Source of the DNA: Dehalococcoidia bacterium
GTDB lineage: Bacteria; Chloroflexota; Dehalococcoidia; Plut-88900
Length of the DNA: 64,000 nt
Reading direction: 5' to 3'
Assembly (NCBI GenBank): GCA_965197645.1
Contig: OZ240219.1
Span: 2,304,001-2,368,000 of the forward strand
Shown here: one piece after another, positions 10,708 to 43,777 of the stretch
Position numbering within the stretch: the stretch's first letter is position 1
Layout of the letters: every line of letters begins with the position of its first letter
Made by a program: the position numbers and the translations under genes
Notes under the pieces: model-generated
The model's input: only the letters and a program-made list of their open reading frames with translations
Databases searched by the model: none
What the model was told of the DNA's origin: nothing

Positions 10708-11478
10708 CTAGGAAAGTTCTGACTGTGCAGTTTCCATCCTGATAATCTTAGCGGCTTCTTCAGTGCCTGGGGGTAGTATCTCTACGCATTTCTCATCATC
10801 GTAGAGTTCCACAAGACGTTGACTGTGCATCCTGCGCAATAAAGTCCTGAAATATCTAACATTACGATACTCAATCCACCGCAAGAGTTCGGATGTACGA
10901 ACAGGACTTGTCGATGTAGCCAACAACAAGAGTATCTGAGATTGCACCTTCAGAGTCGGTAGCAGGACACGACGCGTATCGGGGCCTTCCCATATGAGTG
11001 GAACTCGTCGTTGAGCAAGATGATCTACTAGCGACTGGGCCTCTCCAATGGTTACATCATGGAGTACTCGTACCAATTCTCCCATCACCCAACTGCAACT
11101 CGCGACGACGAAAGCGGCGTCCATGTAGTTGGGGTTGACGTCCCCTCCCACATGCCCAACGCCTCGATTGTTCCTGACCTCGAAAAGCGTGGGCAGGAGC
11201 CTCGGTATGAGAATCTGAAAACTTCTGGGCACATGCGTGTTCTGCTCTAACCGGCGGCATGCTCCTACAAAATCCTGTGGTTTCTTGGGGGTGTCTGGAT
11301 AACTTCCACTTGCATGGCCTTCGAGAACCGTGAAAACAATCTCGCAAAATCTACCCCCGCTCAACTCGGAAGGAAGCCACCTGTTCTCTGAGAAGGAGTG
11401 AAGAATGTTCTGGTATTCCTCCAGCAGACGATCCCTCAGGCCAGTAGGCAACAAACCAAGTACGTAGTGCAGACTCAC
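10708..11478 (-). CDS. Hypothetical protein with HEPN/Abi-like Rx6H motif and C-terminal winged helix
   Basis: Helical protein with EVRNNRGVGH; wHTH-like C-terminus; visibly lower GC than the flanks. Confidence 0.55.
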   Translation of the reverse strand: MSLHYVLGLLPTGLRDRLLEEYQNILHSFSENRWLPSELSGGRFCEIVFTVLEGHASGSYPDTPKKPQDFVGACRRLEQNTHVPRSFQILIPRLLPTLFEVRNNRGVGHVGGDVNPNYMDAAFVVASCSWVMGELVRVLHDVTIGEAQSLVDHLAQRRVPLIWEGPDTRRVLLPTLKVQSQILLLLATSTSPVRTSELLRWIEYRNVRYFRTLLRRMHSQRLVELYDDEKCVEILPPGTEEAAKIIRMETAQSELS

Positions 11479-11957
11479 TAATCTTCACCTTCACCCAATT
11501 GCTTGAGTCCCTCGGGGGTAATGAAGAATCCTACTGATGTTTTCTCGCAGAAGCCTCTTGAGACATTCTGGTTGAGGCAGTCTGAAGCATTACTCAGCCG
11601 TTTCTGCTGATTATCTTGGAGAGCCTTGGAAACTGCTTTGGTAGTCAGGTCTTTCTCTCCGCGGTACCAAAGCCATCCGGCAGTAGCCAAGAACCGTTGA
11701 ACCTGTACAGTATCGCCACCCTTCTCTCTCAAATAGCTGGCTAGCGATCTATTCGACAAAGTTTCATTCCGTTTCCCACCCAGCTTGGACGACACACTGT
11801 CTACTGGGGTAACGGTCTGTACTTTGGGAGCCAAATCGATTAGTTTGTTGATTTGCCTATCAAGCCACTCCTGGTCCCCTTCACCCGAAAAACTCAAGTT
11901 GCCTATAGTCAGTTCGATCTTGCCGCGCAGTGCTTCGGACTCCTTCATCATAGTCAC
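11478..11957 (-). CDS. Hypothetical protein, C-terminal winged-helix-like (FFITPEG)
   Basis: 159-aa ORF with AGGAG RBS; its stop overlaps the start of the downstream gene at 11478. Confidence 0.6.
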   Translation of the reverse strand: MTMMKESEALRGKIELTIGNLSFSGEGDQEWLDRQINKLIDLAPKVQTVTPVDSVSSKLGGKRNETLSNRSLASYLREKGGDTVQVQRFLATAGWLWYRGEKDLTTKAVSKALQDNQQKRLSNASDCLNQNVSRGFCEKTSVGFFITPEGLKQLGEGED

Positions 11958-12256
11958 TCCTTGTACTGAACCTTCGAGTCATCACTATCCATCAATACTA
12001 GCACACATAGCACGGTTGCACAATCGCTGTATGAATCATAACCCAATTCATAGTCCAGGCTGAGGAGTGTCTTGGCGGTGGAGGTGGAATTAGGTGTAAG
12101 GTGAAGTGCGGCCCGGGTCGGGAGAAGATAGGGAGGGACGATTCAGGAGTGACCTTCGCAAGAATTGATTTGATAAATCGGCATAAGAAATCGTGGACAC
12201 AGCAACGCTTGAAATGACTGTTTGACATGGCTTCGGGGCAAGATGGGAGTTGTCAT

Positions 12257-13441
12257 CTAGGGGGCTACGGCGATGGCATCGATTTCGCAGAGAGCCTCGG
12301 GAAACCCTCCGATGCTGTCCACCACCACTCCGGTGACCGCTTTCGGCTGACCTTTGAAGAACTCTTCGATAATCTCGACTGACCGGCCGTACCATCCGGC
12401 ATGGGTAATGAAGTAGGACATCTTGGCTATGTCATCGATGTTACAGCCCACCGAACCAAGGGCCGACTCCACTTTTTCCAACGCGTTGCGGAACTGGACA
12501 TCGAAATTGCCTGGGCCTACAAAACCACCGCCCGTTTCCAATGCCGTCTGCCCGGATACGTGAGCCAGTCCATCCGCTACTACCACGTTGCTGAAATTGA
12601 AGGGCGGCGGTTGGCCCGGGAGATTAACATAATCAGCCTTTGAAGGCGGCTTCAGGCCAATGGCATCGGCTCCGACAAGAGCCTGGGGATCGTCCAACGC
12701 CCGTATAGATACGACGTTGTCACCGGGAGGGTTGCCGTGGAAAGCTCGGTCCCTGAGGCGGGACAGCTCTCGATAGTACAGTGGGTTCGTGATGAAGTAG
12801 TTTATCTTCACCAGGTCGTTGAAACTACTACCGGCCGCTTCGAGGGCATCACCGACGCCCTTGTAAACGCCCCTCAGCTGCCGGGAAAAGGCCGAGTCCT
12901 CGCTCACCGGGTCCAGGGAGCCGGAGGACGTGAGGCACGAGACCCAGACCGTATCTCCCGTGGTGACCGATTGGGACGTGGATGAACCGGTCTCGGTAGC
13001 AGTTCTCAAGCCGGTAGTAGCGTGGGCATAGGCCTCTACGGCGATCAATGCCTCGGGGACAGCCAGGGAGGTGACGGCCACCGTCGTATTGGCGGGTGGG
13101 CCCACAGGGAAGCGACTGCCAACCACCTCGTAGTAGTCCTGAAAGTGCACCGGGTTGACGATGTAGCCCGTGAGCTTGGCCACGGCGCGAGGGCTGAGCC
13201 CCGACGCTTCCAGCACCTGCTCCACGGCATCGATGAGCCGGTTTGCCTGGGCAACGAAGTCTCCCTCGCCCACCAGTGCTCCCTCGGCGTCCAATGGCAG
13301 CTGCGCCGATAGGAACACCCAGCCGCCGGCCCTGGTACCCGGGCAAAAGGGTCCGGTTGCTACGTAGGAAGGTAGGTGGATAGCCTCGACAGCCAACATC
13401 TGATCCCCGGTGTCTTGGACGAATAACTCGCCGTTACCCAT
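12257..13441 (-). CDS. Triple-domain RidA/YjgF family protein
   Basis: Three ~125-aa Rid repeats (FLSAQL..AKLTGY..AVEAYA; VKINYF..GADAIG; VSGQTA..AKMSYF..EIDAIA). Start may be 13399. Confidence 0.8.
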   Translation of the reverse strand: MGNGELFVQDTGDQMLAVEAIHLPSYVATGPFCPGTRAGGWVFLSAQLPLDAEGALVGEGDFVAQANRLIDAVEQVLEASGLSPRAVAKLTGYIVNPVHFQDYYEVVGSRFPVGPPANTTVAVTSLAVPEALIAVEAYAHATTGLRTATETGSSTSQSVTTGDTVWVSCLTSSGSLDPVSEDSAFSRQLRGVYKGVGDALEAAGSSFNDLVKINYFITNPLYYRELSRLRDRAFHGNPPGDNVVSIRALDDPQALVGADAIGLKPPSKADYVNLPGQPPPFNFSNVVVADGLAHVSGQTALETGGGFVGPGNFDVQFRNALEKVESALGSVGCNIDDIAKMSYFITHAGWYGRSVEIIEEFFKGQPKAVTGVVVDSIGGFPEALCEIDAIAVAP

Positions 13442-13503
13442 ACCGGTAGTAGGGACTATCTTCGCCCCAGTCTCAGAGTTCCAGTCCGGAGGCCTGGTCC
13501 CGG

Positions 13504-14751
13504 TTAGCCGGCAACCATCACCCCGGCCCTACGCAGCCTGTCCGCTGCCACGTCGGCCTTCTGGAAGTCCTCCTCGGAGAAGTTGTAGAGACCGGCTCCA
13601 CCGCCGAGGATGTTTCCAGCCATCTCCTTGGGCACGGTGTTCAACAGGTTGTTGGACACGTTGGGGAAGTTGGAGTCGAAGTGGGGATAGTCGGTGGACA
13701 TGCACATTCGGTCGGCGCCGATCAGGTTGGCTGTCGGCTCTATCTCAGGCTCGCTGCCTTCCACGGCGGCCCAGCAGTTTCTTCGGAAGTACTCCCTGGG
13801 GCTGAGGGTAAGGTAAGGAGCGTGGGAGTCTCGATAGTTGGGATAGTCCCACTCGATGCGGGTCAGCAGCCCCGGCACCCACGAGTTCTGGGCCTCCAGG
13901 TAACCCACTCTCAGGTTCGGATGGAACTCGAAGACTCCCCCGATGAGCTGGGCTATCAGGGACTGCTGCATCTCTATCCAGTGGCTGGCCACGTGGCGGT
14001 ACCACCTGTTCTCTCCGTACAACTCGTCCATGTGAGAGTACCAGGATCCGGTGCCTTCGTGGAAACACCAGGAGACGTCCAATTCCTCGTGGAGACTGTA
14101 GAGGGGGTCCCAATAGTTGGAATGCCAGTAATGTTCGTTCACCTTGTTGGGGCGAACGAAGGAGGCCACGGCCCCGAGCTCGGTCACACATCGGACCAGC
14201 TCCTGGCAGGCCAGGTTCACGTCATGCACCGGCAGGATTGCGGCGAATTTAAGCTGGTCTGGGCTGTACTGGCAGAAATCGTGGATCCAGTTGTTGTAGG
14301 CGCGACAGATGGCTGCCGAAAGGTGGGGGTCCATGTCGTTTCTGGCCAGGAAGGCTAGGCCGAAGGTGGGGAACAGGGTGGCGATATCGATCCCCTCCAT
14401 CTCCATGGCCATCACCTGGGCTTCCTCGTTGTAGTTCCGATCGAGGGCGAACTGCATTTGACCGGTCTTGGCCAGGCGAGAGCTGGAGAGATTGATGAAC
14501 TGGGAGGGGTCTTGGGCGGGGTCCAACTCCTCCGGCTGCTTCACTGGGATCTTTTTGCGGTATCTCTGTAGCAGTGTGTCGCTCGATGTGGGCATCCGGT
14601 CGAACACCCATTCACCTGGGACCGGTTTGCCATCTGCGCCCACCGGCGTGGTGATCCGCTCCTTGAACTTCGGGTCCAGATACCTCTGGAACAGGTCGGG
14701 CGGCTCCATGATGTGCATATCGCAGTCGACGAACCTGTAACCTTCCTTCAT
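13504..14751 (-). CDS. Amidohydrolase_2 family protein
   Basis: VDCDMHIMEP, AYNNW, FHEG, GGVFEFHP.LR, STDYPHFD. Confidence 0.9.
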   Translation of the reverse strand: MKEGYRFVDCDMHIMEPPDLFQRYLDPKFKERITTPVGADGKPVPGEWVFDRMPTSSDTLLQRYRKKIPVKQPEELDPAQDPSQFINLSSSRLAKTGQMQFALDRNYNEEAQVMAMEMEGIDIATLFPTFGLAFLARNDMDPHLSAAICRAYNNWIHDFCQYSPDQLKFAAILPVHDVNLACQELVRCVTELGAVASFVRPNKVNEHYWHSNYWDPLYSLHEELDVSWCFHEGTGSWYSHMDELYGENRWYRHVASHWIEMQQSLIAQLIGGVFEFHPNLRVGYLEAQNSWVPGLLTRIEWDYPNYRDSHAPYLTLSPREYFRRNCWAAVEGSEPEIEPTANLIGADRMCMSTDYPHFDSNFPNVSNNLLNTVPKEMAGNILGGGAGLYNFSEEDFQKADVAADRLRRAGVMVAG

Positions 14752-23967: not shown

Positions 23968-25092
23968 TCAGTTGAGGTTGAACTGCTCGAAGTGCCCGTT
24001 CACGATGGGCGCGGCCTCCAGGTCCAACCAATTCTCCAGGATAGTGGAGTAGATGGACCGGAAGTCGTTGTTGAAGTGCAGGTCGCCGTTGAGCTGGTCC
24101 TCTTCCTTCAGCGAGGGGTACTCTCCGTACATGCCACCCTGGACCGAACCTCCGATGACGAAGGCCACTCCACCGGAGCCGTGGTCCGTCCCCGAGCCGT
24201 TATCCTTGATCCTGCGTCCAAACTCGGAGAATATGAGTATGAGGGTATCTTTCTCCCGACCGTGCTCCTTGAGATCGGCATAGAAGTCGCCTACTGCGCC
24301 CGACACCTCCCGCCACAGCATGGAATGCTGGGACATCTGCCCTCCATGGGTGTCGAAGCTTCCGTGCTGGGTGTAGTAGACCCTTGTGCCCAGATCGGCG
24401 AACATCACCTGGGCGACGCCCTTCAACGCCTGCCCCATTGGATCGGGCGCGTACTCTATGCTGGAAGAGTAATTAGCCGGTGCGGTCTGAAGAATCTCGG
24501 CGCCGGTGAGGGCCTCCATGCCGGTCTGCGCCAGATGATCGATGGCCGATCCTCGGCCCTCAGGGCCGTACATCTTGGCGAAAGCGTCAAGCGCGTAGCT
24601 TTTCATCCGTTCGCTCTCGAGGTTGGAGAACAGGCCGTAGGTCTCGAGCTCGGCTACCGAGGCCACTGGGACTCCTCTGCAGGCCAAGGCCCGCGGAAGA
24701 ACAACGCCGAAGTTGACAGCAGTCAGCACGTTGTCTTTGTTAGGGTCCAGGTCCCGCACCGCCCGGCCAAGCCATCCTTCGGTCCCTACCTTGTCCGGTT
24801 CGGCCGTGTGCCAGATGTCCATAGAACGAAAGTGGGAGCGGTTGGGGTTGCCGTAGCCTATCCCGTTGATGATGGCCACGTTGCCCTCGTCCCACAGGCT
24901 CTTGATGGCCGGCATGTTGGGGTTGAAGCCGTACTCGTCGTCGATGGGCAGCACCTCTTCCGGCGCCACCCGTATCGTCTGCCGAGAATCGTAGTAGACG
25001 CCATTGTTGTAGGGGACCACCGTGTTGAGATAGTCGTTCCCGCCGGAAAGCTGGATCACCACCAACGTCTTTTCGCTGCTATCGGATGCCAC
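23968..25092 (-). CDS. DUF1501 family protein (copy 1)
   Basis: QLSGGNDYLN, RSHF, FDTH, SEFGRR..NGSGTDHG, DFRSIY. GTG start after AGGAGG. Confidence 0.85.
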   Translation of the reverse strand: MASDSSEKTLVVIQLSGGNDYLNTVVPYNNGVYYDSRQTIRVAPEEVLPIDDEYGFNPNMPAIKSLWDEGNVAIINGIGYGNPNRSHFRSMDIWHTAEPDKVGTEGWLGRAVRDLDPNKDNVLTAVNFGVVLPRALACRGVPVASVAELETYGLFSNLESERMKSYALDAFAKMYGPEGRGSAIDHLAQTGMEALTGAEILQTAPANYSSSIEYAPDPMGQALKGVAQVMFADLGTRVYYTQHGSFDTHGGQMSQHSMLWREVSGAVGDFYADLKEHGREKDTLILIFSEFGRRIKDNGSGTDHGSGGVAFVIGGSVQGGMYGEYPSLKEEDQLNGDLHFNNDFRSIYSTILENWLDLEAAPIVNGHFEQFNLN

Positions 25093-25152: not shown

Positions 25153-26169
25153 CTAGCTCTGCTTCTGATATATCTGGATTCGGTGCCGGCCGCTGTCCAC
25201 AATGTAGATCCGTCCCTCGCCGTCCACCTTTACCGAAGTGGGGCCCCAGAACAGCTTCTCCACCAGCGATGATCGAGGCTGGAAGCGGCTGTCGGGGTTG
25301 GTAACCTTCGGTTCCAGGTTGGATGCTTGCCTGGCCTCGTACTCCTGCGGGTTGCTCTTGAAGTAGTCCTCCGCCCAAGTGGACGGCGTGGCCTCTCCCC
25401 TCAGCTCCATCTGAAATCGGCCATCGGAGTCGAGCACCTGTACCCGTTCGTTTCCCCAGTCGGTCACATAGACCAGCCCATCGTCGTCCACCGCCACGCT
25501 GGAAGGCCGGTTGAACTCTCCCTCGCCCTGTCCCGAGCCTCCCCAGGTGGCCAGGTGCTTGCCGCTGGAATCGAACCTCTGGATCCTGTCGTTTCTCCAG
25601 TCGGCCACGTATACGTCGCCGCCGTTGTCCACGGCGATCCCCCAGGGCATGTCGAACTCGCCGTCGCCCTTTCCCCCTTGGCCCCACTGACCGACGGACT
25701 GGCCGTCCGAGGTGTACCTTTGGACCCGGTTGTTCAGACTATCGACCACCATGAGGTGTCCGTCCCGGTCAAATGCGATGCCCGAGGGGCCGTTGAACTC
25801 TCCCTCCCCGTCTCCGTTTACACCCCACTTGGCGATGAACTTGCCGTCCTGATCGAATACGGAGATCCGGTGAAGTGCCTCGTCGGAAACGTACAGCTTG
25901 TTGTCGTTGTCCACCACGCCTGCTACGGGCCACATGATCTTCCCGTCCTCGGTGCCCACGCCGCTGAACTCACCGAGGAAGCCGCCGGTGTTCGTGCATA
26001 TGGTTATCCGCTTGTAGGGTATGTCGGCGTAGTCGTCGAAAGCTCGACACAGCACGTACATCACCCCATCGCGAGCCAACCCCACGTCCACCGGATTGAA
26101 GAATCCCCTGCCCAGGTCGCTGAACAGTCCAACCGTGTGGCTGTATCGACACACTGGCCCGTTGCTCAT
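25153..26169 (-). CDS. NHL-repeat beta-propeller protein (copy 1)
   Basis: GEFxxPxGIAVD...VYVADWRNDRIQ repeats. Confidence 0.88.
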   Translation of the reverse strand: MSNGPVCRYSHTVGLFSDLGRGFFNPVDVGLARDGVMYVLCRAFDDYADIPYKRITICTNTGGFLGEFSGVGTEDGKIMWPVAGVVDNDNKLYVSDEALHRISVFDQDGKFIAKWGVNGDGEGEFNGPSGIAFDRDGHLMVVDSLNNRVQRYTSDGQSVGQWGQGGKGDGEFDMPWGIAVDNGGDVYVADWRNDRIQRFDSSGKHLATWGGSGQGEGEFNRPSSVAVDDDGLVYVTDWGNERVQVLDSDGRFQMELRGEATPSTWAEDYFKSNPQEYEARQASNLEPKVTNPDSRFQPRSSLVEKLFWGPTSVKVDGEGRIYIVDSGRHRIQIYQKQS

Positions 26170-26227: not shown

Positions 26228-27655
26228 TTACGTTAGCTGGTATTCCGGCATAGCCCCTATGAGCTGCAACACCATTCCAACCCTGCCGGCGGATACCTGT
26301 CCTTGTGACCCCGCTGCCGGAGAGGCGGCGGCGACCCGTTCCACCAGCTCAGCTCGCGATTCCTCCGAGACCTCCAGCGGTCCTATCAGGTCGAGGCAGG
26401 CGTCCACCAGTTCCTCGGTGGTGCGGTCGGCGCCCTGGGCCTGGATTTTGCTTGTTATCGACTGCACGCCCGGCCGTCCCGTGTCCTGGAACTGCTCGGA
26501 GGCGAAGTTGACCCGGTTTACCAGGCTTGCGGTGTTGATCCACTCGTCGCCGGTGTGCCATCCCTCTACGCTGGGGGGCTCCAGAAGCTCCTGCCCCATC
26601 GTTATAGCGGCGGATTTCAGGCCCGCGTCGCTCATACTGGGAAACTCGTAGCCTCCCACCAAGCGTGAGGTGCCCACCACCAGCTCCGTCGGGCTCTTGA
26701 TCTTCTTGAAGACCGCCTGCTTGAAGAAGTCCGAGTTGAACAGGACCCGTAACACGGACCGGATGTCGTAGTTGCTTGAGAGATAGGCTTCGGAAAGAGT
26801 CTCGATGGCCTGGGGGTCCCGGGGTGGGGTTATGTTCCAGGCTGGGACCTGGGCCTCGTCGGCGACGAAGAAGGTGTAGAGATGCCGGGATACAAACCTG
26901 GCGGTTGCAGGCTGGTTGCAGATGACGTCGATGATGTCTCCGCCATCCAAATCCCCGGTCTCTCCCAGGAAGGACTTTTCTCCGCTGTCATGGTCATTCG
27001 GGTCGAACTGGAACTCGGGCGCCAGATCACCATAGGGCCAGGGCGAGTTGGCTTCCGCCTTGGCGGCGTGATACGGGTTGTCCCTGACGGTCCACCCCGT
27101 AAAAGCCCGGGAGGCGTGCCGGATATCGTCTTCCGTGTAGTTGCCCACGCCCATAGAGAACAGCTCCAGGAGCTCCCGGCCGTAGTTCTCGTTGACCGCG
27201 TCCTTGTGATTGCCGTTGTTGTCCAACCAGAAGATCATGGTGGGGTCCTTGGACACCTGAACGAGCAGGGTATGGAAACTCCCCAGCCCGTACCTCCGGA
27301 ACATCTCTATCTGGTTGAGCATGGCTCGGGCCTGAAAGAGCTTGGTGTACCCCGTGGCGAAGACCCCGTGCCAGAACAGGGCTATCTTCTCCTCCAGCGG
27401 CCGCGTGGTGTTTATCATGCGGCGCATCCAGTAGGTCTGACAGGCCTCGATGGGGTAGAAGTTGTTATGGGTTACGTGGTACCGCCTGATGATGTCCTCA
27501 TCGGCGTATGGAGATGGGGCACTCTCCGGGTCCAGAAGCTCATCCACCGTCGCCTCGTACCCCTTGGCTGCGTAGTCCTCCAGCTCATCCCGTGTCGCTC
27601 CGAACCCGGCGCGGCGCAACAGATGGGCAATGAGGGTTAGATCGTTCGTACTCAT
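26228..27655 (-). CDS. DUF1800 family protein (copy 1)
   Basis: AHLLRRAGFG, EKIALFWH, NENYGRELLELFSMG, RAFTGW, PPSVEGW. ATG 27655 after AGGAGG. Confidence 0.88.
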   Translation of the reverse strand: MSTNDLTLIAHLLRRAGFGATRDELEDYAAKGYEATVDELLDPESAPSPYADEDIIRRYHVTHNNFYPIEACQTYWMRRMINTTRPLEEKIALFWHGVFATGYTKLFQARAMLNQIEMFRRYGLGSFHTLLVQVSKDPTMIFWLDNNGNHKDAVNENYGRELLELFSMGVGNYTEDDIRHASRAFTGWTVRDNPYHAAKAEANSPWPYGDLAPEFQFDPNDHDSGEKSFLGETGDLDGGDIIDVICNQPATARFVSRHLYTFFVADEAQVPAWNITPPRDPQAIETLSEAYLSSNYDIRSVLRVLFNSDFFKQAVFKKIKSPTELVVGTSRLVGGYEFPSMSDAGLKSAAITMGQELLEPPSVEGWHTGDEWINTASLVNRVNFASEQFQDTGRPGVQSITSKIQAQGADRTTEELVDACLDLIGPLEVSEESRAELVERVAAASPAAGSQGQVSAGRVGMVLQLIGAMPEYQLT

Positions 27656-27783: not shown

Positions 27784-27812
27784 AATTTACTGAATATACC
27801 GCTGGTCGTCAA
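27784..27812 (-). promoter_or_regulatory. Sigma70-like promoter for DUF1800 operon 1
   Basis: TTGACG-N17-TAAATT on the minus strand. Confidence 0.5.
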
Positions 27813-35444: not shown

Positions 35445-36455
35445 CTAGGTTACCTGGAGCGTGGGTGACCGGAGCTCGGGGATGATCTGCTCCGCCGTCA
35501 ACGGGATGGCCTCTTTCTGGTACATCTGGATACGGTAGGAACCGAAGTCGGTCACGAGCAATCTCCCCTCGGAGTCGACGTGGACCGAGGTGGGGCTTCG
35601 TAACCGTTTCTGGGGCTCCAGCGAGGCCATCTCCCGCAGTCGAAGGGGCTTGGCGTTGGTCATCAGGTAGCGGGTGGCGGACTTGGACAGCGAGGCGTCC
35701 CCGATGAACTTCTCCAGGTACTGGCCGTTCTCATTGAACATCTGGACCCTGTGGTTGCCCCTATCGGCGACGTAGATGTCGCCGTCGGAGTCCACGGCCA
35801 CGTCGGAGGGCCTGTTGAATTCTCCGTTTCCATCGCCGGAGCCACCGATGGACAGGACGAAGTCGCCGGTCGGCGAGAACTTCTGCACCCGATCGTTGCG
35901 CCAGTCCGCCACGTAGACGTCGTTCACCTCGTCCACGGTGATGCCCCACGGCATGTTGAGCTGTCCTTCACCATCGCCGAGGCTTCCCCAGCTGAGCAGG
36001 TGTTTGCCGTCTTTGGTGAACTTCTGTATCCGATGGTTCAGCGAATCGGCGATGTAGATGTTCCCCTCGGAGTCGAATGTCATGCCGGCGGGCCGGTTCA
36101 GCTGGCCCGGCTCGCTGCCTTCCTCGCCCCATTTGCTTAGAAACTCGCCCTTTTCGTTGAACACGGAGACGCGATTTAACGCTTCGTCGGAGACGTACAG
36201 GTTGTCGTCCCCATCCATGATGACCGAAACGGGCCACAGCAGCTTGCCGTCCTCCTTGCCCATGTCGCTGATGATGCCCAGATCGTCATCTTCCCAGCTC
36301 AATCTCCGGACGTCGGCTTCCCACTCGCCGCGACACAGAACGTAGAGGTGTTCCTTGCCTATGGCCAGATCGACGGGGTAGCTGGTGACCCTCCTCATGC
36401 CCAGAGTCTTTACATAAGGAAAGCCGGTCCGAAGCAGTGCGTAAGGTCTGTCCAT
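35445..36455 (-). CDS. NHL-repeat beta-propeller protein (copy 2)
   Basis: NHL repeats; YVSDEAL, MPWGI..VYVADWRNDR shared with copy 1. Confidence 0.88.
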   Translation of the reverse strand: MDRPYALLRTGFPYVKTLGMRRVTSYPVDLAIGKEHLYVLCRGEWEADVRRLSWEDDDLGIISDMGKEDGKLLWPVSVIMDGDDNLYVSDEALNRVSVFNEKGEFLSKWGEEGSEPGQLNRPAGMTFDSEGNIYIADSLNHRIQKFTKDGKHLLSWGSLGDGEGQLNMPWGITVDEVNDVYVADWRNDRVQKFSPTGDFVLSIGGSGDGNGEFNRPSDVAVDSDGDIYVADRGNHRVQMFNENGQYLEKFIGDASLSKSATRYLMTNAKPLRLREMASLEPQKRLRSPTSVHVDSEGRLLVTDFGSYRIQMYQKEAIPLTAEQIIPELRSPTLQVT

Positions 36456-36511
36456 AGTTCACCTCGATAGGGGCTAGATATGCCCGAGTATCTTGCTACG
36501 CGATCGATTGA

Positions 36512-37645
36512 TTAGTTGAACGGTCTTATCTGCTCGAACGACCCGCCTACGATGGGGGCGGGGTCGATGCTCAGCCACTGTTCCAGGATAGTGCCGTAGA
36601 CGCCGCGGAAATCGATGGTGTGCTCCAGGTCTTCGCCCCTGGCCCACGTCTCGGGTTGAAGCGAGGGATACTCGGAGTAGAAGCCACCGTTCACCCGCTC
36701 GCCGATGATGAAAGCGCCTCCGCCGGTGCCGTGATCGGTGCCGCTCCCGTTGTCCTTCATGCGTCTCCCGAACTCGGTAAACACCAGCATGACCACCTCT
36801 TCCGATGCGTCATGGGACTCGATATCTTGGAAGAAGTCGGTAAGGGCGCTGGCGAGCTCGCTGAGAAGCCTGGGGTGGACTGGGCCCTGTCCGGCGTGGG
36901 TGTCATATCCGGCGTGCTGGGTGTAGAAGATGCGGGTGCCCAGGTCTGCGAAGTGCACCCTGGCCACATCCCGCAGGCTCTGCGCTATCGGATTGGGGGC
37001 GTACTCCACGTCCGACGTGTAGCCGGCCACGGCTTCTTTCAGGATCTCCGCACCCTTGATCACGTCCAAGCCGGTACGCGCCAGGTAGTCCGATACGGGA
37101 CCGGTGCCGATGGCCGGGCTGTAGATATCCTGGAATATCCCCAGTGCCTCGTTTCGTTGACCCACGTCGGTAATGCCGGCCAGCAGCCCGTAGGTCTCCA
37201 GATCGCCTACCGATGTTATCGGCACGTCGGGGCAGGCCAGGGCGCGGGGCATACCGCGCCCGAAGCTGACCGTAGTCAAAACGTTTTCGTGTTTCGGGTC
37301 CAACTCCTGGGTCGCCTGGCCTAGCCATCCCTTCAGACCCACGGCATCGGGCTCGCAGGTGTGCCAGATGTCCATGGCCCTGAAGTGAGAGCGGCTGGAA
37401 TCCGGGTAGCCTATCCCTTGGACGATGGCCATCTTACCCGCATCATAGAGGTCCTTTGCCGGAGCGAAGGATGGGTGAAACCCCAAAGTGTCGTTCAGGT
37501 GCACCACCTGGTCTTCGGGCACGTTCAGAGTCTTTCTCGTATCGTAGTAGATCGGGTTGGTGTAGGGGATGAGGGTGTTCATGAAGTCGTTGCCCCCACT
37601 TAGCTGCACAACCACCAGAACCGGCGACTTTCCATTGCCGACCAT
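36512..37645 (-). CDS. DUF1501 family protein (copy 2)
   Basis: QLSGGNDFMN, RSHFRAMDIWHT, YDTH, TEFGRR..NGSGTDHG. ATG 37645 after GGAGG. Confidence 0.85.
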   Translation of the reverse strand: MVGNGKSPVLVVVQLSGGNDFMNTLIPYTNPIYYDTRKTLNVPEDQVVHLNDTLGFHPSFAPAKDLYDAGKMAIVQGIGYPDSSRSHFRAMDIWHTCEPDAVGLKGWLGQATQELDPKHENVLTTVSFGRGMPRALACPDVPITSVGDLETYGLLAGITDVGQRNEALGIFQDIYSPAIGTGPVSDYLARTGLDVIKGAEILKEAVAGYTSDVEYAPNPIAQSLRDVARVHFADLGTRIFYTQHAGYDTHAGQGPVHPRLLSELASALTDFFQDIESHDASEEVVMLVFTEFGRRMKDNGSGTDHGTGGGAFIIGERVNGGFYSEYPSLQPETWARGEDLEHTIDFRGVYGTILEQWLSIDPAPIVGGSFEQIRPFN

Positions 37646-37659
37646 ATCCTCGCCTCCTA

Positions 37660-39063
37660 CTAGTTGAACTGGTACTCCGTAGACGAAACAATCAACTGAA
37701 TCAACCGCTTTACGAGAGCAGTGCTGTCCGCTCTTTCGGCGTCGGTCCCGAAGCTGAGACTTCCCGCAGATTGGGCGTGGCCTATCAGGGCGGAACGGGT
37801 ATCCTCCTCGACTTGCAGCGAGCCCACCTGGGCAAGGCACCGCTCCACCACCTCCTCCGGCGCCGGGGCGTCTCCACCCGAGCTTAGTACTTCGACCGCT
37901 TCGCTGATCGCCTCACTGTCCGGCTCGCCCAGCCGATCGACGGCGAAGTTGACCCGTTCGTTCAGGGTGCCGGCGTCTATCCACTCCTTGCCCGTGTGCC
38001 AACCCTCCACCGAGGGAGGGTTGTACAGGAACTGGCCCATCGCCTCGCTGGCAGAGACCAGGTTCAACAGGCCCGGCTCGGGGAACCGGTGCGCCCCGGT
38101 CAGTTTGACGGTGCCAACCACAAACTCGGTGGGGCTTTTCACCCGCTTGTACCGGGCTTGCTTGAAGAAATCGGAGTTGAACAGGGTCTCCAGCACGGCC
38201 CGCATGTTGCCGCCGGAGGCATGGTAGGACTCCACCAGAGCATCGACGGCCTTGGGGTCCTGCGGAGGGACGGTGCTCCAGGCCGGGACCTGGGGTTCAT
38301 CGGCGACGAAGAAGTTGTACAGATGTCTCGCTATGAATCTGGCGGTGGCGTCCTGCTTGACGATGATGTCTATGATGTCCTCGCCGTTGAACCGCCCCGA
38401 GTTGCCGAGGAAGGTCTTTTCGCTATCGTCGTGGTCGTCCTCCCGGTATACGAACTCTGATTCGTAATGACCGAAGGGATAGAGGGGTATGGGCTGGTGG
38501 AAAGTCCACCCGGTGAAGGCCCGGGCGGCGTGCTTGATATCGTCTTCCGTGTAGTTGCCGATACCCATCGAGAACAGCTCCAGCAGCTCACGCCCGTAGT
38601 TCTCGTTTATTTCATCCTTGTGGTTCTCGTGGTTGTCTAGCCAATCGATCATCGCCGGGTCTCTGGACAGGTCCAGGAGAATGGTCTTCATGTCCGAAAG
38701 CCCGTTGGCGCGGAAGGTCTCAATCTGGTTCATCGAGGACCGGGGATGCTCGCTCTTGTGCCAGCCCGTGGCGAAGACGTGATGCCAGAACAGCGCCATC
38801 TTCTCCTGGAGAGGGCGTTGGGTGTTGATCATGATGTAGAGCCACCGGGCCGCGTACTCATCCGGGACCTCCACGGAGTCCAGGGAGGTATAGTATCTCC
38901 GGAGAATGTCATCAGCGACTTCCGGGGATTGCTCCGGATGAAGAAGATCGCCCAGAACGGCATCGTATCCCCGGGCTGCGTACTCATCCAGCTCTCTCCT
39001 GGTCGCCCCGAAACCGGCGCGTCGCATCAGGTGTGCTACGAGATCCAGGTCGTTGTCTGCCAT
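37660..39063 (-). CDS. DUF1800 family protein (copy 2)
   Basis: AHLMRRAGFG, EKMALFWH, NENYGRELLELFSMG, PPSVEGW. ATG 39063 after AGGAGG. Confidence 0.88.
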   Translation of the reverse strand: MADNDLDLVAHLMRRAGFGATRRELDEYAARGYDAVLGDLLHPEQSPEVADDILRRYYTSLDSVEVPDEYAARWLYIMINTQRPLQEKMALFWHHVFATGWHKSEHPRSSMNQIETFRANGLSDMKTILLDLSRDPAMIDWLDNHENHKDEINENYGRELLELFSMGIGNYTEDDIKHAARAFTGWTFHQPIPLYPFGHYESEFVYREDDHDDSEKTFLGNSGRFNGEDIIDIIVKQDATARFIARHLYNFFVADEPQVPAWSTVPPQDPKAVDALVESYHASGGNMRAVLETLFNSDFFKQARYKRVKSPTEFVVGTVKLTGAHRFPEPGLLNLVSASEAMGQFLYNPPSVEGWHTGKEWIDAGTLNERVNFAVDRLGEPDSEAISEAVEVLSSGGDAPAPEEVVERCLAQVGSLQVEEDTRSALIGHAQSAGSLSFGTDAERADSTALVKRLIQLIVSSTEYQFN

Positions 39064-39125
39064 CTGATTCCTCCTGAATGGGGATCGAGGGTGCGCCAAC
39101 GTTACCCCGGCTGTATGTTAGTCCG

Positions 39126-39154
39126 ATTTTAAAGAGTCCCGAATAAGGTGTCAA
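39126..39154 (-). promoter_or_regulatory. Sigma70-like promoter for DUF1800 operon 2
   Basis: TTGACA-N17-TAAAAT on the minus strand, about 60 nt upstream of the ATG. Confidence 0.65.
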
Positions 39155-42742: not shown

Positions 42743-43777
42743 ATGGCTGACACAGAACAGCACTGGGAGTACGGCGTAAAGACGGCGGGCCATACTGAGG
42801 TATACGCGGCCTCCGGCCCGGCGTTACTCGGAGAGGGCGGTTTCAGGTACAGCGTATCCGGCGAGAACTGGGGCGACCTCCCCGATGGGTGGACCTACAA
42901 GGAAGCCACGGCAGTGGACGTGGACTCCAGGGACCAGGTTTATGTATTCAACCGGGGTACGTGCCCCATGATCGTCTTCGACTCGGCGGGGAACGTGCTG
43001 AGGACCTGGGGCGAAGGTGTATTCAGCAACCCCCACGGCGTCACCATCGCTCCCGATGATACGGTGTTCTGTGTCGACAACGGCGATAGCACGGTCCGGC
43101 AGTTCACCCCCGAAGGCAAGCTGCTCATGACCCTCGGCACGGCGAATAATCCAAGCGCCAAGATGAGCGGAGACCCCTTTTCTCTGCCGGCCCACGTGGC
43201 CTTCGATAAGAGGACCGGGGAGTTCTACGTGGCCGATGGCTACTCCAACGCACGGGTACACAAGTACACCCCCGATGGCAAGCTCCTGTTCTCCTGGGGC
43301 GAATCGGGCACCGGCGAAGGGCAGTTCAACATCGTTCACAACCTGACCGTTGACAGCAATGGATGGGTCTACGTGGCCGACCGGGAGAACCACCGGATTC
43401 AGGTGTTCAGTCCCGAGGGGAGGTACGAGACCCAGTGGGTCAACCTCTCCCGGGCTGCGGCGATCTGCATCGACGACCGGTCGGGAGAAGAGCTGGTCTA
43501 CATCGGAGAGTACTTCTGCGGGATTGCCACCAACGATATAGGCACCGATCTGGGCCCACGCGTTACGGTGATGAACACCAGTGGCAAGGTCCTGGCGAGG
43601 GTAGGCCGGGAAAGCTACGGGGCCCAGATGGGTAGGTTCTACTCTCCTCATGGAATCGCCGTGGACTCGAAGGGCGACATCTACGTGGCCGAGGTTTCCT
43701 GGAGCGACTACGGAAGCGTAATGGACCCGCCTCGCGAGCTCCGCTCGATGCAGAAGCTGGTCAAGGTGCCGGAGTAG
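42743..43777 (+). CDS. NHL-repeat protein, peptidyl-alpha-hydroxyglycine alpha-amidating lyase (PAL)-like
   Basis: PHG, YVADGYSNARVHK, VH, ADRENHRIQ, PHGIAVD, YVAEV. Confidence 0.8.
   Translation: MADTEQHWEYGVKTAGHTEVYAASGPALLGEGGFRYSVSGENWGDLPDGWTYKEATAVDVDSRDQVYVFNRGTCPMIVFDSAGNVLRTWGEGVFSNPHGVTIAPDDTVFCVDNGDSTVRQFTPEGKLLMTLGTANNPSAKMSGDPFSLPAHVAFDKRTGEFYVADGYSNARVHKYTPDGKLLFSWGESGTGEGQFNIVHNLTVDSNGWVYVADRENHRIQVFSPEGRYETQWVNLSRAAAICIDDRSGEELVYIGEYFCGIATNDIGTDLGPRVTVMNTSGKVLARVGRESYGAQMGRFYSPHGIAVDSKGDIYVAEVSWSDYGSVMDPPRELRSMQKLVKVPE

What the first reader, a model, noticed from the sequence alone, without database searches (positions are those of the whole stretch)
35445..39154. Second, diverged DUF1800-DUF1501-NHL operon with shuffled order
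Seen: the same three families recur about 8 kb away in a different order, clearly diverged, with their own TTGACA-17-TAAAAT promoter. Both NHL proteins share an unusual insert before the last blade (GEATPSTWAEDYFKSNP..R.ASNLEP vs GDASLSKSATRYLMTNA..REMASLEP) that the third NHL at 42743 lacks. Both DUF1800s share FVADE.QVPAW...PP.DP. Inference: retention through old duplication and rearrangement argues for an obligate three-part module with paralogue-specific substrates.
Basis: partly seen in the sequence, partly recalled or inferred. Interest (0 to 1): 0.75.

Follow-up and report, generated by a model that had tools for sequence, protein, structure and literature searches.

The report
SAR202 propeller-capped DUF1800–DUF1501 enzyme module
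Three of the most abundant unexplained protein families of SAR202-type bacteria turn out to be one repeatedly duplicated gene module, in which a propeller protein is predicted to dock on an uncharacterised helical protein and a phosphatase-like enzyme is a looser third partner.

Summary
Operon B (DUF1800-DUF1501-NHL) and operon A (DUF1800-NHL-DUF1501) lie 7.8 kb apart and are 46-52% identical. The promoter, NHL insert and motifs are as described.

The interpretation needs a correction: the obligate unit is DUF1800+NHL, not three genes. All 77 related loci (Dehalococcoidia/SAR202/Chloroflexota) with an insert-bearing NHL carry a same-strand DUF1800, but 26 have no DUF1501. None of the 7 loci with several DUF1800s has more than one DUF1501.

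DUF1800 and NHL trees track each other (r=0.93, against 0.73-0.75 with DUF1501), and their indels match in 97 of 97 pairs. A complex model scored 0.87 against a best control of 0.00. In it, DUF1800 Arg56 (97/97) and Tyr57 plug the propeller's top face, and the NHL insert contacts the co-varying DUF1800 loop.

DUF1501 has an alkaline-phosphatase-superfamily fold (Z 17.8) and no Tat signal (0 of 53), unlike the canonical exported pair. DUF1800 has no solved fold match.

Best reading: a cytoplasmic metallohydrolase with paralogue-specific DUF1800-NHL heads and a shareable DUF1501. The substrate is unknown, and paralogue-specific substrates are untested. The DUF1800-DUF1501 pair and the abundance of the three COGs in SAR202 are published; I found no report of the module.

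The parts
39126..39154 (-). sigma-70-type promoter candidate of operon B, TTGACA-17-TAAAAT
   Evidence: 11/12 match; consensus match only
37660..39063 (-). DUF1800-B, 467 aa, all-helical, no signal peptide. NHL-docking helix 52-62 (D52, R56, Y57) and short PxPxYPxG loop 189-201
36512..37645 (-). DUF1501-B, 377 aa, alkaline-phosphatase-superfamily fold, no Tat signal. Invariant D20, S86, H87, R89, D248, H250, E291, R294, R295, D304, H305
35445..36455 (-). NHL-B, 336 aa six-repeat propeller with a short (33 aa) insert between repeats 5 and 6 and a C-terminal tail
27784..27812 (-). promoter candidate of operon A, TTGACG-17-TAAATT
   Evidence: 9/12 match
26228..27655 (-). DUF1800-A, 475 aa, long-loop type (+9 aa after FTGWT)
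25153..26169 (-). NHL-A, 338 aa, long-insert type (49 aa)
23968..25092 (-). DUF1501-A, 374 aa, GTG start after AGGAGG, no Tat signal

Best explanation
A lineage-specific, cytoplasmic variant of the widespread DUF1800-DUF1501 pair, expanded into paralogues in SAR202-type Dehalococcoidia, with relatives in Entotheonellaceae. Well supported: each DUF1800 has its own NHL propeller. In the model, DUF1800 R56/Y57/D52 plug the propeller's top face (W170, W185, R186, R215, E91, W74), and the NHL insert contacts the DUF1800 loop 189-201. The insert is therefore a partner-binding element, and DUF1800+NHL duplicate as a cognate pair. Inferred: DUF1501 is the catalytic subunit, a metal-dependent Ser86-nucleophile hydrolase or transferase of the alkaline phosphatase superfamily acting on a phosphate- or sulfate-type ester. 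It binds the conserved DUF1800 core and can serve several DUF1800-NHL heads, in trans where a locus has lost it. Weakest step: the variable heads tune substrate access, so paralogues work on different small organic substrates.
For: Linkage: DUF1800 with NHL in 77 of 77 loci; equal copy numbers in 75 of 77; DUF1800 never in excess. Indels: long/long 72, short/short 25, discordant 0 of 97. Trees: r=0.93 for DUF1800-NHL against 0.75 and 0.73 with DUF1501 on the same 45 modules; 23 of 30 supported splits shared. Complex: score 0.87, best of 3 controls 0.00. The mark was reached by 116 of 157 solved complexes and 2 of 215 mismatched pairs; these counts hold only roughly for my own alignments. Runs agree in at least 89% of contacts and partner pLDDT is at least 92. 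No solved DUF1800 relative was found by sequence or fold, so recall of a known complex is unlikely. R56 is 97/97 and D52 82/97; NHL W170, R274 and R308 are 97/97. The docking helix motif and the loop are absent from 8 of 8 canonical DUF1800s, whose loci have no NHL. Of the top 50 MI-APC pairs, 9 join interface residues against 0.41 expected. DUF1501 fold: Z 17.8, rmsd 4.2 over 277 residues to PafA; ENPP7 17.7; ENPP6 17.6. No twin-arginine motif in 0 of 53 module DUF1501s, while canonical ones carry it. In 4 of 5 genomes with a DUF1501-less locus and a second sampled locus, the second locus has DUF1501.
Against: DUF1800-DUF1501 binding was not modelled. It rests on the canonical operon and the conserved DUF1800 core. 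The long/short indels are one evolutionary event each (the short clade is monophyletic, 99), so 97 of 97 is not 97 independent tests. MI is confounded by kinship and by indel-adjacent columns. The DUF1501 second metal site departs from the NPP/PafA pattern (E291-F292 in place of Asp-His; pattern recalled, mapping inferred from strand order), so catalysis is not shown. The 77 loci are the best 80 of 581 matches to a long-insert query. Operon B's own subtype is linked only through 13 of 120 matching contig lengths (0.62 expected). No flanking pathway points to a substrate.
Confidence: 0.55

Rival explanations
1. DUF1800-NHL is itself the working enzyme, with an active site made from invariant DUF1800 polar residues (H94, H148, N153, E154, N155, R158, E159, E162, H211). 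DUF1501 is a trans-acting activator or maturase that loads a metal or modifies DUF1800, so one copy serves many heads.
For: At most one DUF1501 in all 7 multi-DUF1800 loci and none in 26 of 77 loci. The DUF1800 core residues are invariant or nearly so and kept in DUF1501-less loci. Segment 101-106 varies by paralogue. DUF1501's second metal site looks non-canonical (inferred).
Against: Canonical loci keep a 1:1 adjacent pair in 8 of 8 cases. The DUF1501 tree still shares 17 supported splits with DUF1800.
Confidence: 0.25
2. One reading: an obligate three-gene module whose three subunits are all paralogue-specific.
For: 51 of 77 loci and both window operons have all three genes, in several orders. 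The DUF1501 data do not reject the DUF1800/NHL grouping (p=0.226). DUF1501-B groups with the short-loop clade like its partners (96).
Against: 26 of 77 loci lack DUF1501 by tblastn, 24 of them with at least 4 kb of flank on both sides of the module. Clusters with two or three heads share one DUF1501. The DUF1800 data reject the DUF1501 grouping (p=0.020; the group was named after seeing the trees).
Confidence: 0.12
3. The propeller binds a nucleic acid or small ligand on its Arg/Trp-rich top face, as TRIM-NHL domains do (recalled), and is a co-transcribed sensor rather than a subunit.
For: The nearest solved sequence relatives are TRIM71, Thin and Brat NHL domains. The top face is rich in Arg and Trp.
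Against: The model places DUF1800 on exactly those residues. The complementary D52/R56/Y57 motif is found in NHL-linked DUF1800s and not in the 8 canonical ones. The TRIM hits reflect generic repeats.
Confidence: 0.06

Closest known systems
Canonical DUF1800-DUF1501 operon (PF08811/PF07394; COG5267/COG4102), PMC5122149 (passages read)
   Same: Same two families, same DUF1800-then-DUF1501 order in operon B, and the same RSHF, DTH, EFGR and GTDHG motifs.
   Different: Canonical DUF1501 carries a twin-arginine signal (paper), while 0 of 53 module copies do. Canonical loci have no NHL (0 of 8). Here DUF1800 has an added docking helix motif and loop, and DUF1501 is often absent from the locus.
SAR202 abundant unknown COGs COG3391 (YncE propeller), COG5267 and COG4102, PMC6946804 (section 8, passages and supplementary sheet 5 read; figures not seen)
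   Same: The same three families are named together as uncharacterised members of the 50 most abundant SAR202 COGs. JGI labels many of the NHL hits here as YncE.
   Different: In the text I read, the paper reports abundance correlation only. It gives no operon, interface, localisation or fold, and COG3391 also covers unrelated propellers.
PVC DUF1501 + PSCyt1/PSCyt2/PSD1 modules, PMC3542564 (passages read)
   Same: DUF1501 expanded in many copies, each beside a larger partner protein, function unknown.
   Different: Those modules are exported and carry cytochrome c motifs. Here the partner is DUF1800 capped by an NHL propeller, with no signal peptides.
Alkaline phosphatase superfamily: PafA (5too), ENPP7 (5udy), ENPP6 (5ege), Xac NPP (7mw8)
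   Same: Fold of DUF1501-B, Z 17.6-17.8; invariant Ser at the start of a helix; Asp/His ligands.
   Different: Identity 9-14%. D-x-H and E-F in place of D-x3-H and D-H (canonical pattern recalled). Needs partner genes; substrate unknown.

Membership tests
DUF1800 / DUF1501 / NHL Pfam families | score above the Pfam gathering cut-off | tested here: met
   340.6, 78 and 140.3 bits against 26.1, 27 and 20
Canonical exported DUF1800-DUF1501 pair | adjacent co-oriented DUF1800 then DUF1501 | tested here: met
   operon B, 14 nt gap; but only 12 such junctions across the clade, window included
Canonical exported DUF1800-DUF1501 pair | twin-arginine signal on DUF1501 | tested here: not met
   0 of 53 by motif search; the proteins start directly at the first core strand; no dedicated predictor was run
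Alkaline phosphatase superfamily | core alpha/beta fold | tested here: met
   Foldseek 174 matches at E<=0.001 led by sulfatases; VIA-align Z 17.8, rmsd 4.2, 277 aligned
Alkaline phosphatase superfamily | Ser/Thr nucleophile at a helix N-terminus plus metal ligands | tested here: inconclusive
   S86 invariant just before helix 87-96; D20, D248, H250, E291, D304, H305 invariant; no residue-level superposition was available
NPP/PafA bimetallic enzymes | Asp after strand 1, D-x3-H and D-H ligand pairs (recalled) | tested here: inconclusive
   sequence shows variable residue 16, D248-x-H250 and E291-F292, which departs from the pattern; the mapping is inferred from strand order
Formylglycine sulfatases | C/S-x-P-x-R motif (recalled) | tested here: not met
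   the motif is S86-H-F-R89, invariant in 53 of 53
Alkaline phosphatase superfamily | hydrolysis or transfer of phosphate/sulfate esters | not testable with these tools
   needs an assay
TRIM-NHL RNA-binding domains | RNA binding on the top face | not testable with these tools
   sequence likeness only; the model fills that face with DUF1800

The most novel reading that the evidence does not exclude
SAR202 has a further, unrecognised catabolic paralogue expansion built combinatorially: a few shared alkaline-phosphatase-fold catalytic subunits are redirected by many interchangeable DUF1800-NHL specificity heads of unsolved fold toward different dissolved organic phosphorus or sulfur compounds. 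This would be the first function for the widespread DUF1800-DUF1501 system.
Probability: 0.3. Interest if true: 0.85.

Novelty: new variant of a known kind. Interest (0 to 1): 0.62.

Why it matters
COG3391, COG5267 and COG4102 are among the 50 most abundant gene families of SAR202 and are listed as uncharacterised (PMC6946804). Tying them into one module gives a concrete subunit layout, an interface and candidate catalytic residues. Because this variant has no signal peptides, it should be an easy route to express the complex and to solve a DUF1800 structure, for which no solved relative was found. It could also give the first function for a DUF pair found across several bacterial phyla. Two DUF1800 proteins were detected in an Entotheonella factor vesicle-fraction proteome (PMC12981691, passages read); whether they are NHL-linked could not be checked.

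Tried and rejected
1. The 50%-representative search with a two-sequence insert profile returned only long multi-repeat proteins; 0 of 150 carry the insert. It gave no census of the family.
2. No conserved fourth gene or pathway. ORF clustering found only generic families, the commonest an SDR in 16 of 78 loci. Pfam on the 139 nearest flanking genes was heterogeneous. The 130 second-nearest genes were not scanned.
3. No shared operator upstream: Gibbs motif scores equalled controls, and the gapped k-mers enriched were AT-rich and promoter-like. No Rfam hit in the window.
4. FVADE.QVPAW as the family marker was rejected (70 of 97).
5. DUF1800 has no fold match: Foldseek gave 0 hits at E<=0.001 and the best VIA-align Z was 5.9, C-terminal region only. 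This does not show a new fold; the N-terminal part was not searched alone. The ApcE likeness mentioned in PMC12981691 was not tested directly, and no phycobilisome chain is among the listed rows.
6. Sequence searches of the PDB found nothing significant for DUF1501 or DUF1800. The ESM Atlas added nothing.
7. The ancestral gene order could not be inferred, because the outgroup branches are long.
8. Left unchecked: accession-level adjacency of the protein hits, cognate versus non-cognate and DUF1800-DUF1501 complex models (one job only), fused forms outside 0.55-1.75x length, the metagenome and viral contig collections, and the supplement of PMC12981691. Four image-only supplements and the figures of PMC6946804 were also not seen and could bear on the novelty claim.
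Full report
Observation. The window holds two minus-strand clusters of the same three Pfam families. Operon B is DUF1800 39063-37660, DUF1501 37645-36512 and NHL 36455-35445. Operon A is DUF1800 27655-26228, NHL 26169-25153 and DUF1501 25092-23968. Identities are 51, 52 and 46%. Between them lie a biotin-dependent carboxylase/CoA-transferase cluster with its own promoter candidate and an amidohydrolase. The promoter TTGACA-17-TAAAAT is at 39154-39126. Promoter counts in the region are not above shuffles (4 against 5.0), but module heads in related loci carry such sites more often than other intergenic regions (43 of 72 against 118 of 635). The insert sits between repeats 5 and 6 of a six-repeat propeller, read from the sequence. 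The NHL at 42743 lacks it.

Relatives. Region searches with the two inserts gave 299 and 309 hits, of which 120 each were listed. The few named ones are Dehalococcoidia/Chloroflexota and Entotheonellaceae. DUF1800-B relatives carry the same names. The two NHL sets form distinct subtypes sharing a G-x-A-x-L-S...Y...N...R...LEP core. The first row was a long-insert protein, so the sample is biased to that type. The window's origin among SAR202-type Dehalococcoidia is inferred from these relatives.

Gene linkage. All 77 loci have a same-strand DUF1800 clustered with the NHL. Copy numbers are equal in 75 of 77, NHL is in excess in 2, and DUF1800 is never in excess. Secondary DUF1800s that were not the partner of the scan match also have their own NHL. 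DUF1501 is present in 51 and absent by tblastn in 26 loci, 24 of them with at least 4 kb of flank on both sides. The 7 loci with two or three DUF1800s hold one DUF1501 (6) or none (1). Cluster orders, window included (D = DUF1800, N = NHL, P = DUF1501): DN 26, DNP 23, PDN 14, DPN 9, PDNDN 4, and four single cases. DUF1501 presence changes at least 7 times on an 84-row DUF1800 tree. In 4 of 5 genomes where a DUF1501-less locus and a second locus were both sampled, the second has DUF1501. For operon B's own subtype, 13 of 120 NHL hits share an exact longest-contig length with a DUF1800-B hit, against 0.62 expected.

Co-evolution. The DUF1800 loop after FTGWT (32 or 23 aa) and the NHL insert (47-55 or 33-36 aa) match in length class in 97 of 97. 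This reflects one event each, because the short type is one clade. On the same 45 three-gene modules, tree-distance correlations are 0.93 (DUF1800-NHL), 0.75 (DUF1800-DUF1501) and 0.73 (NHL-DUF1501); shared supported splits are 23, 17 and 17. Paralogues from one genome fall in matching clades of both trees, so this is more than the species tree. Window operon A's DUF1800 sits in a starred six-row clade whose five other members lack DUF1501, while its DUF1501 falls among PDN-type loci without firm support. AU tests are mixed. The DUF1800 data reject the DUF1501 grouping (p=0.020), the NHL data do not (0.156), and the DUF1501 data do not reject the DUF1800/NHL grouping (0.226). DUF1501 therefore mostly follows its partners but more loosely.

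Structures. DUF1501-B (pLDDT 83.6) has the alkaline phosphatase superfamily fold: Z 17.8, rmsd 4.2 over 277 residues to PafA, tied with ENPP7, ENPP6 and Xac NPP; Foldseek lists sulfatases first. Invariant residues include D20, S86, H87, R89, D248, H250, E291, R294, R295, D304 and H305. By strand order and recalled patterns, S86 is the nucleophile, one metal site is intact and the second is altered; the formylglycine motif is absent. DUF1800-B (pLDDT 92.1) is all-helical with no convincing solved match.

Complex model. DUF1800-B with NHL-B scored 0.87 against a best control of 0.00. The mark was reached by 116 of 157 solved and 2 of 215 mismatched pairs, counts that hold only roughly for my alignments. 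Runs agree in at least 89% of contacts and partner pLDDT is at least 92. DUF1800 52-72 lies on the propeller top face (D52 with R215/R186, R56 with W185/W170, Y57 with W74/R121/E91). The 189-201 loop is at the interface together with NHL insert residues 254-282 and 304-308, the two parts whose lengths co-vary. R56 is 97/97, and NHL W170, R274 and R308 are 97/97. Of the top 50 inter-protein MI-APC pairs, 9 join interface residues against 0.41 expected, with the caveat of kinship and indel-adjacent columns. The model supports binding; it does not show it.

Outgroup. Eight canonical DUF1800 loci from plasmid records (8 of 56 hits) all have an adjacent DUF1501 and no NHL match. Their DUF1501s begin with twin-arginine-type signals, seen in the printed N-termini for 7 of 8 and inside the open reading frame for the eighth. 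Their DUF1800s lack the D-x3-R-Y helix motif and the P-x-P-x-Y-P-x-G loop, but share the core motifs and the DUF1501 active-site words. None of 53 module DUF1501s and none of 87 module DUF1800s has a twin-arginine motif, so this variant is most likely cytoplasmic.

Mechanism. Shown by sequence: the linkage, the loss of Tat signals and the cognate co-evolution. Supported by modelling: NHL caps DUF1800, and the insert serves partner binding (I put this step near 0.85). Inferred: DUF1501 is a metal-dependent ester hydrolase or transferase that binds DUF1800 and can be shared (whole model 0.55). The main rival makes DUF1800-NHL the enzyme and DUF1501 a trans-acting activator (0.25). Neighbourhoods are heterogeneous and no operator was found, so the substrate is open.

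Prior knowledge. Searches for DUF1800+DUF1501, DUF1501, DUF1800, SAR202/paralog/NHL repeat, PF07394/PF08811, COG4102/COG5267, COG3391+SAR202 and Entotheonella/SAR202/beta-propeller found the following. PMC5122149: the pair as an operon with a Tat signal (passages). PMC3542564: DUF1501 with PSCyt/PSD1 modules (passages). PMC6946804: the three COGs named together among SAR202's top 50 (passages, section 8 and supplementary sheet 5). The sheet lists COG3391 above COG5267 above COG4102 without counts. PMC12981691: two DUF1800 proteins in an Entotheonella vesicle proteome (passages; supplement unreadable). Term look-ups in PMC10444878, PMC5615132 and PMC3597751 added nothing relevant. None of the text I saw describes the operon, the NHL partner, the interface or the cytoplasmic location. 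The library lacks most subscription papers, and DUF1501's place in the alkaline phosphatase clan may already be recorded in Pfam (recalled, not checked).

Verdict. A real, new variant of a known but functionless system. Interest 0.62.

Noticed in passing
window:42743-43777 (+): Third NHL is a different subfamily: His at several top-face positions (PHG, PAH, VHN, PHG), no insert and none of the DUF1800-docking Trp residues. The resemblance to peptidyl-alpha-hydroxyglycine lyase-like propellers is recalled; PAM is hit at E 6e-21 but below TRIM-NHL domains.
   Followed up: partly
window:22909-23943 (-): BNR/Vps10-type propeller directly downstream of DUF1501-A, likely in the same transcript; not a conserved neighbour in the 77 loci.
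   Followed up: partly
L013:13650-14666, L023:13639-14649, L050:11037-12020: A separate His-rich propeller family lies co-oriented just downstream of the module in 3 of 77 loci; a fourth copy is on the opposite strand in L003.
   Followed up: no
L029, L030, L036, L041, L045 (between DUF1800 and NHL); L010, L020, L027, L053, L058: Uma2-like and PaREP1-like small genes (named by clustering and recalled likeness) repeatedly sit inside or beside the module, in three tandem copies in L029, suggesting an insertion hot spot.
   Followed up: no
L018:8529-11032 and 11216-13719: Two apparently identical DUF1800-NHL copies in tandem: a recent duplication or an assembly artefact.
   Followed up: no
L063:4588-5040; L073:1320-1781; L010:8692-9153: Fur-family regulator genes next to or inside the module in 3 of 77 loci (Pfam for L063; recalled likeness for the other two): a weak hint of a metal link.
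   Followed up: no
window:29195-35297 (-): Methylcrotonyl-CoA-carboxylase-like alpha and beta subunits, a CoA-transferase III and an acyl-CoA-dehydrogenase-like gene, with their own TTGACA-18-TACCAT promoter candidate, separate the two operons.
   Followed up: no
window:15959-17911 (-): ABC peptide-type permease whose translation appears to carry an inserted Ycf48-like (BNR-repeat) propeller, upstream of which lies a family 5 solute-binding protein; read from the translation only.
   Followed up: no
window:37660-39063, residues 265-300: Weak Pfam hit to PSD2/DUF1585 (E 0.002, below cut-off), hinting that DUF1800 may be related to the Planctomycete PSD partner domains.
   Followed up: no
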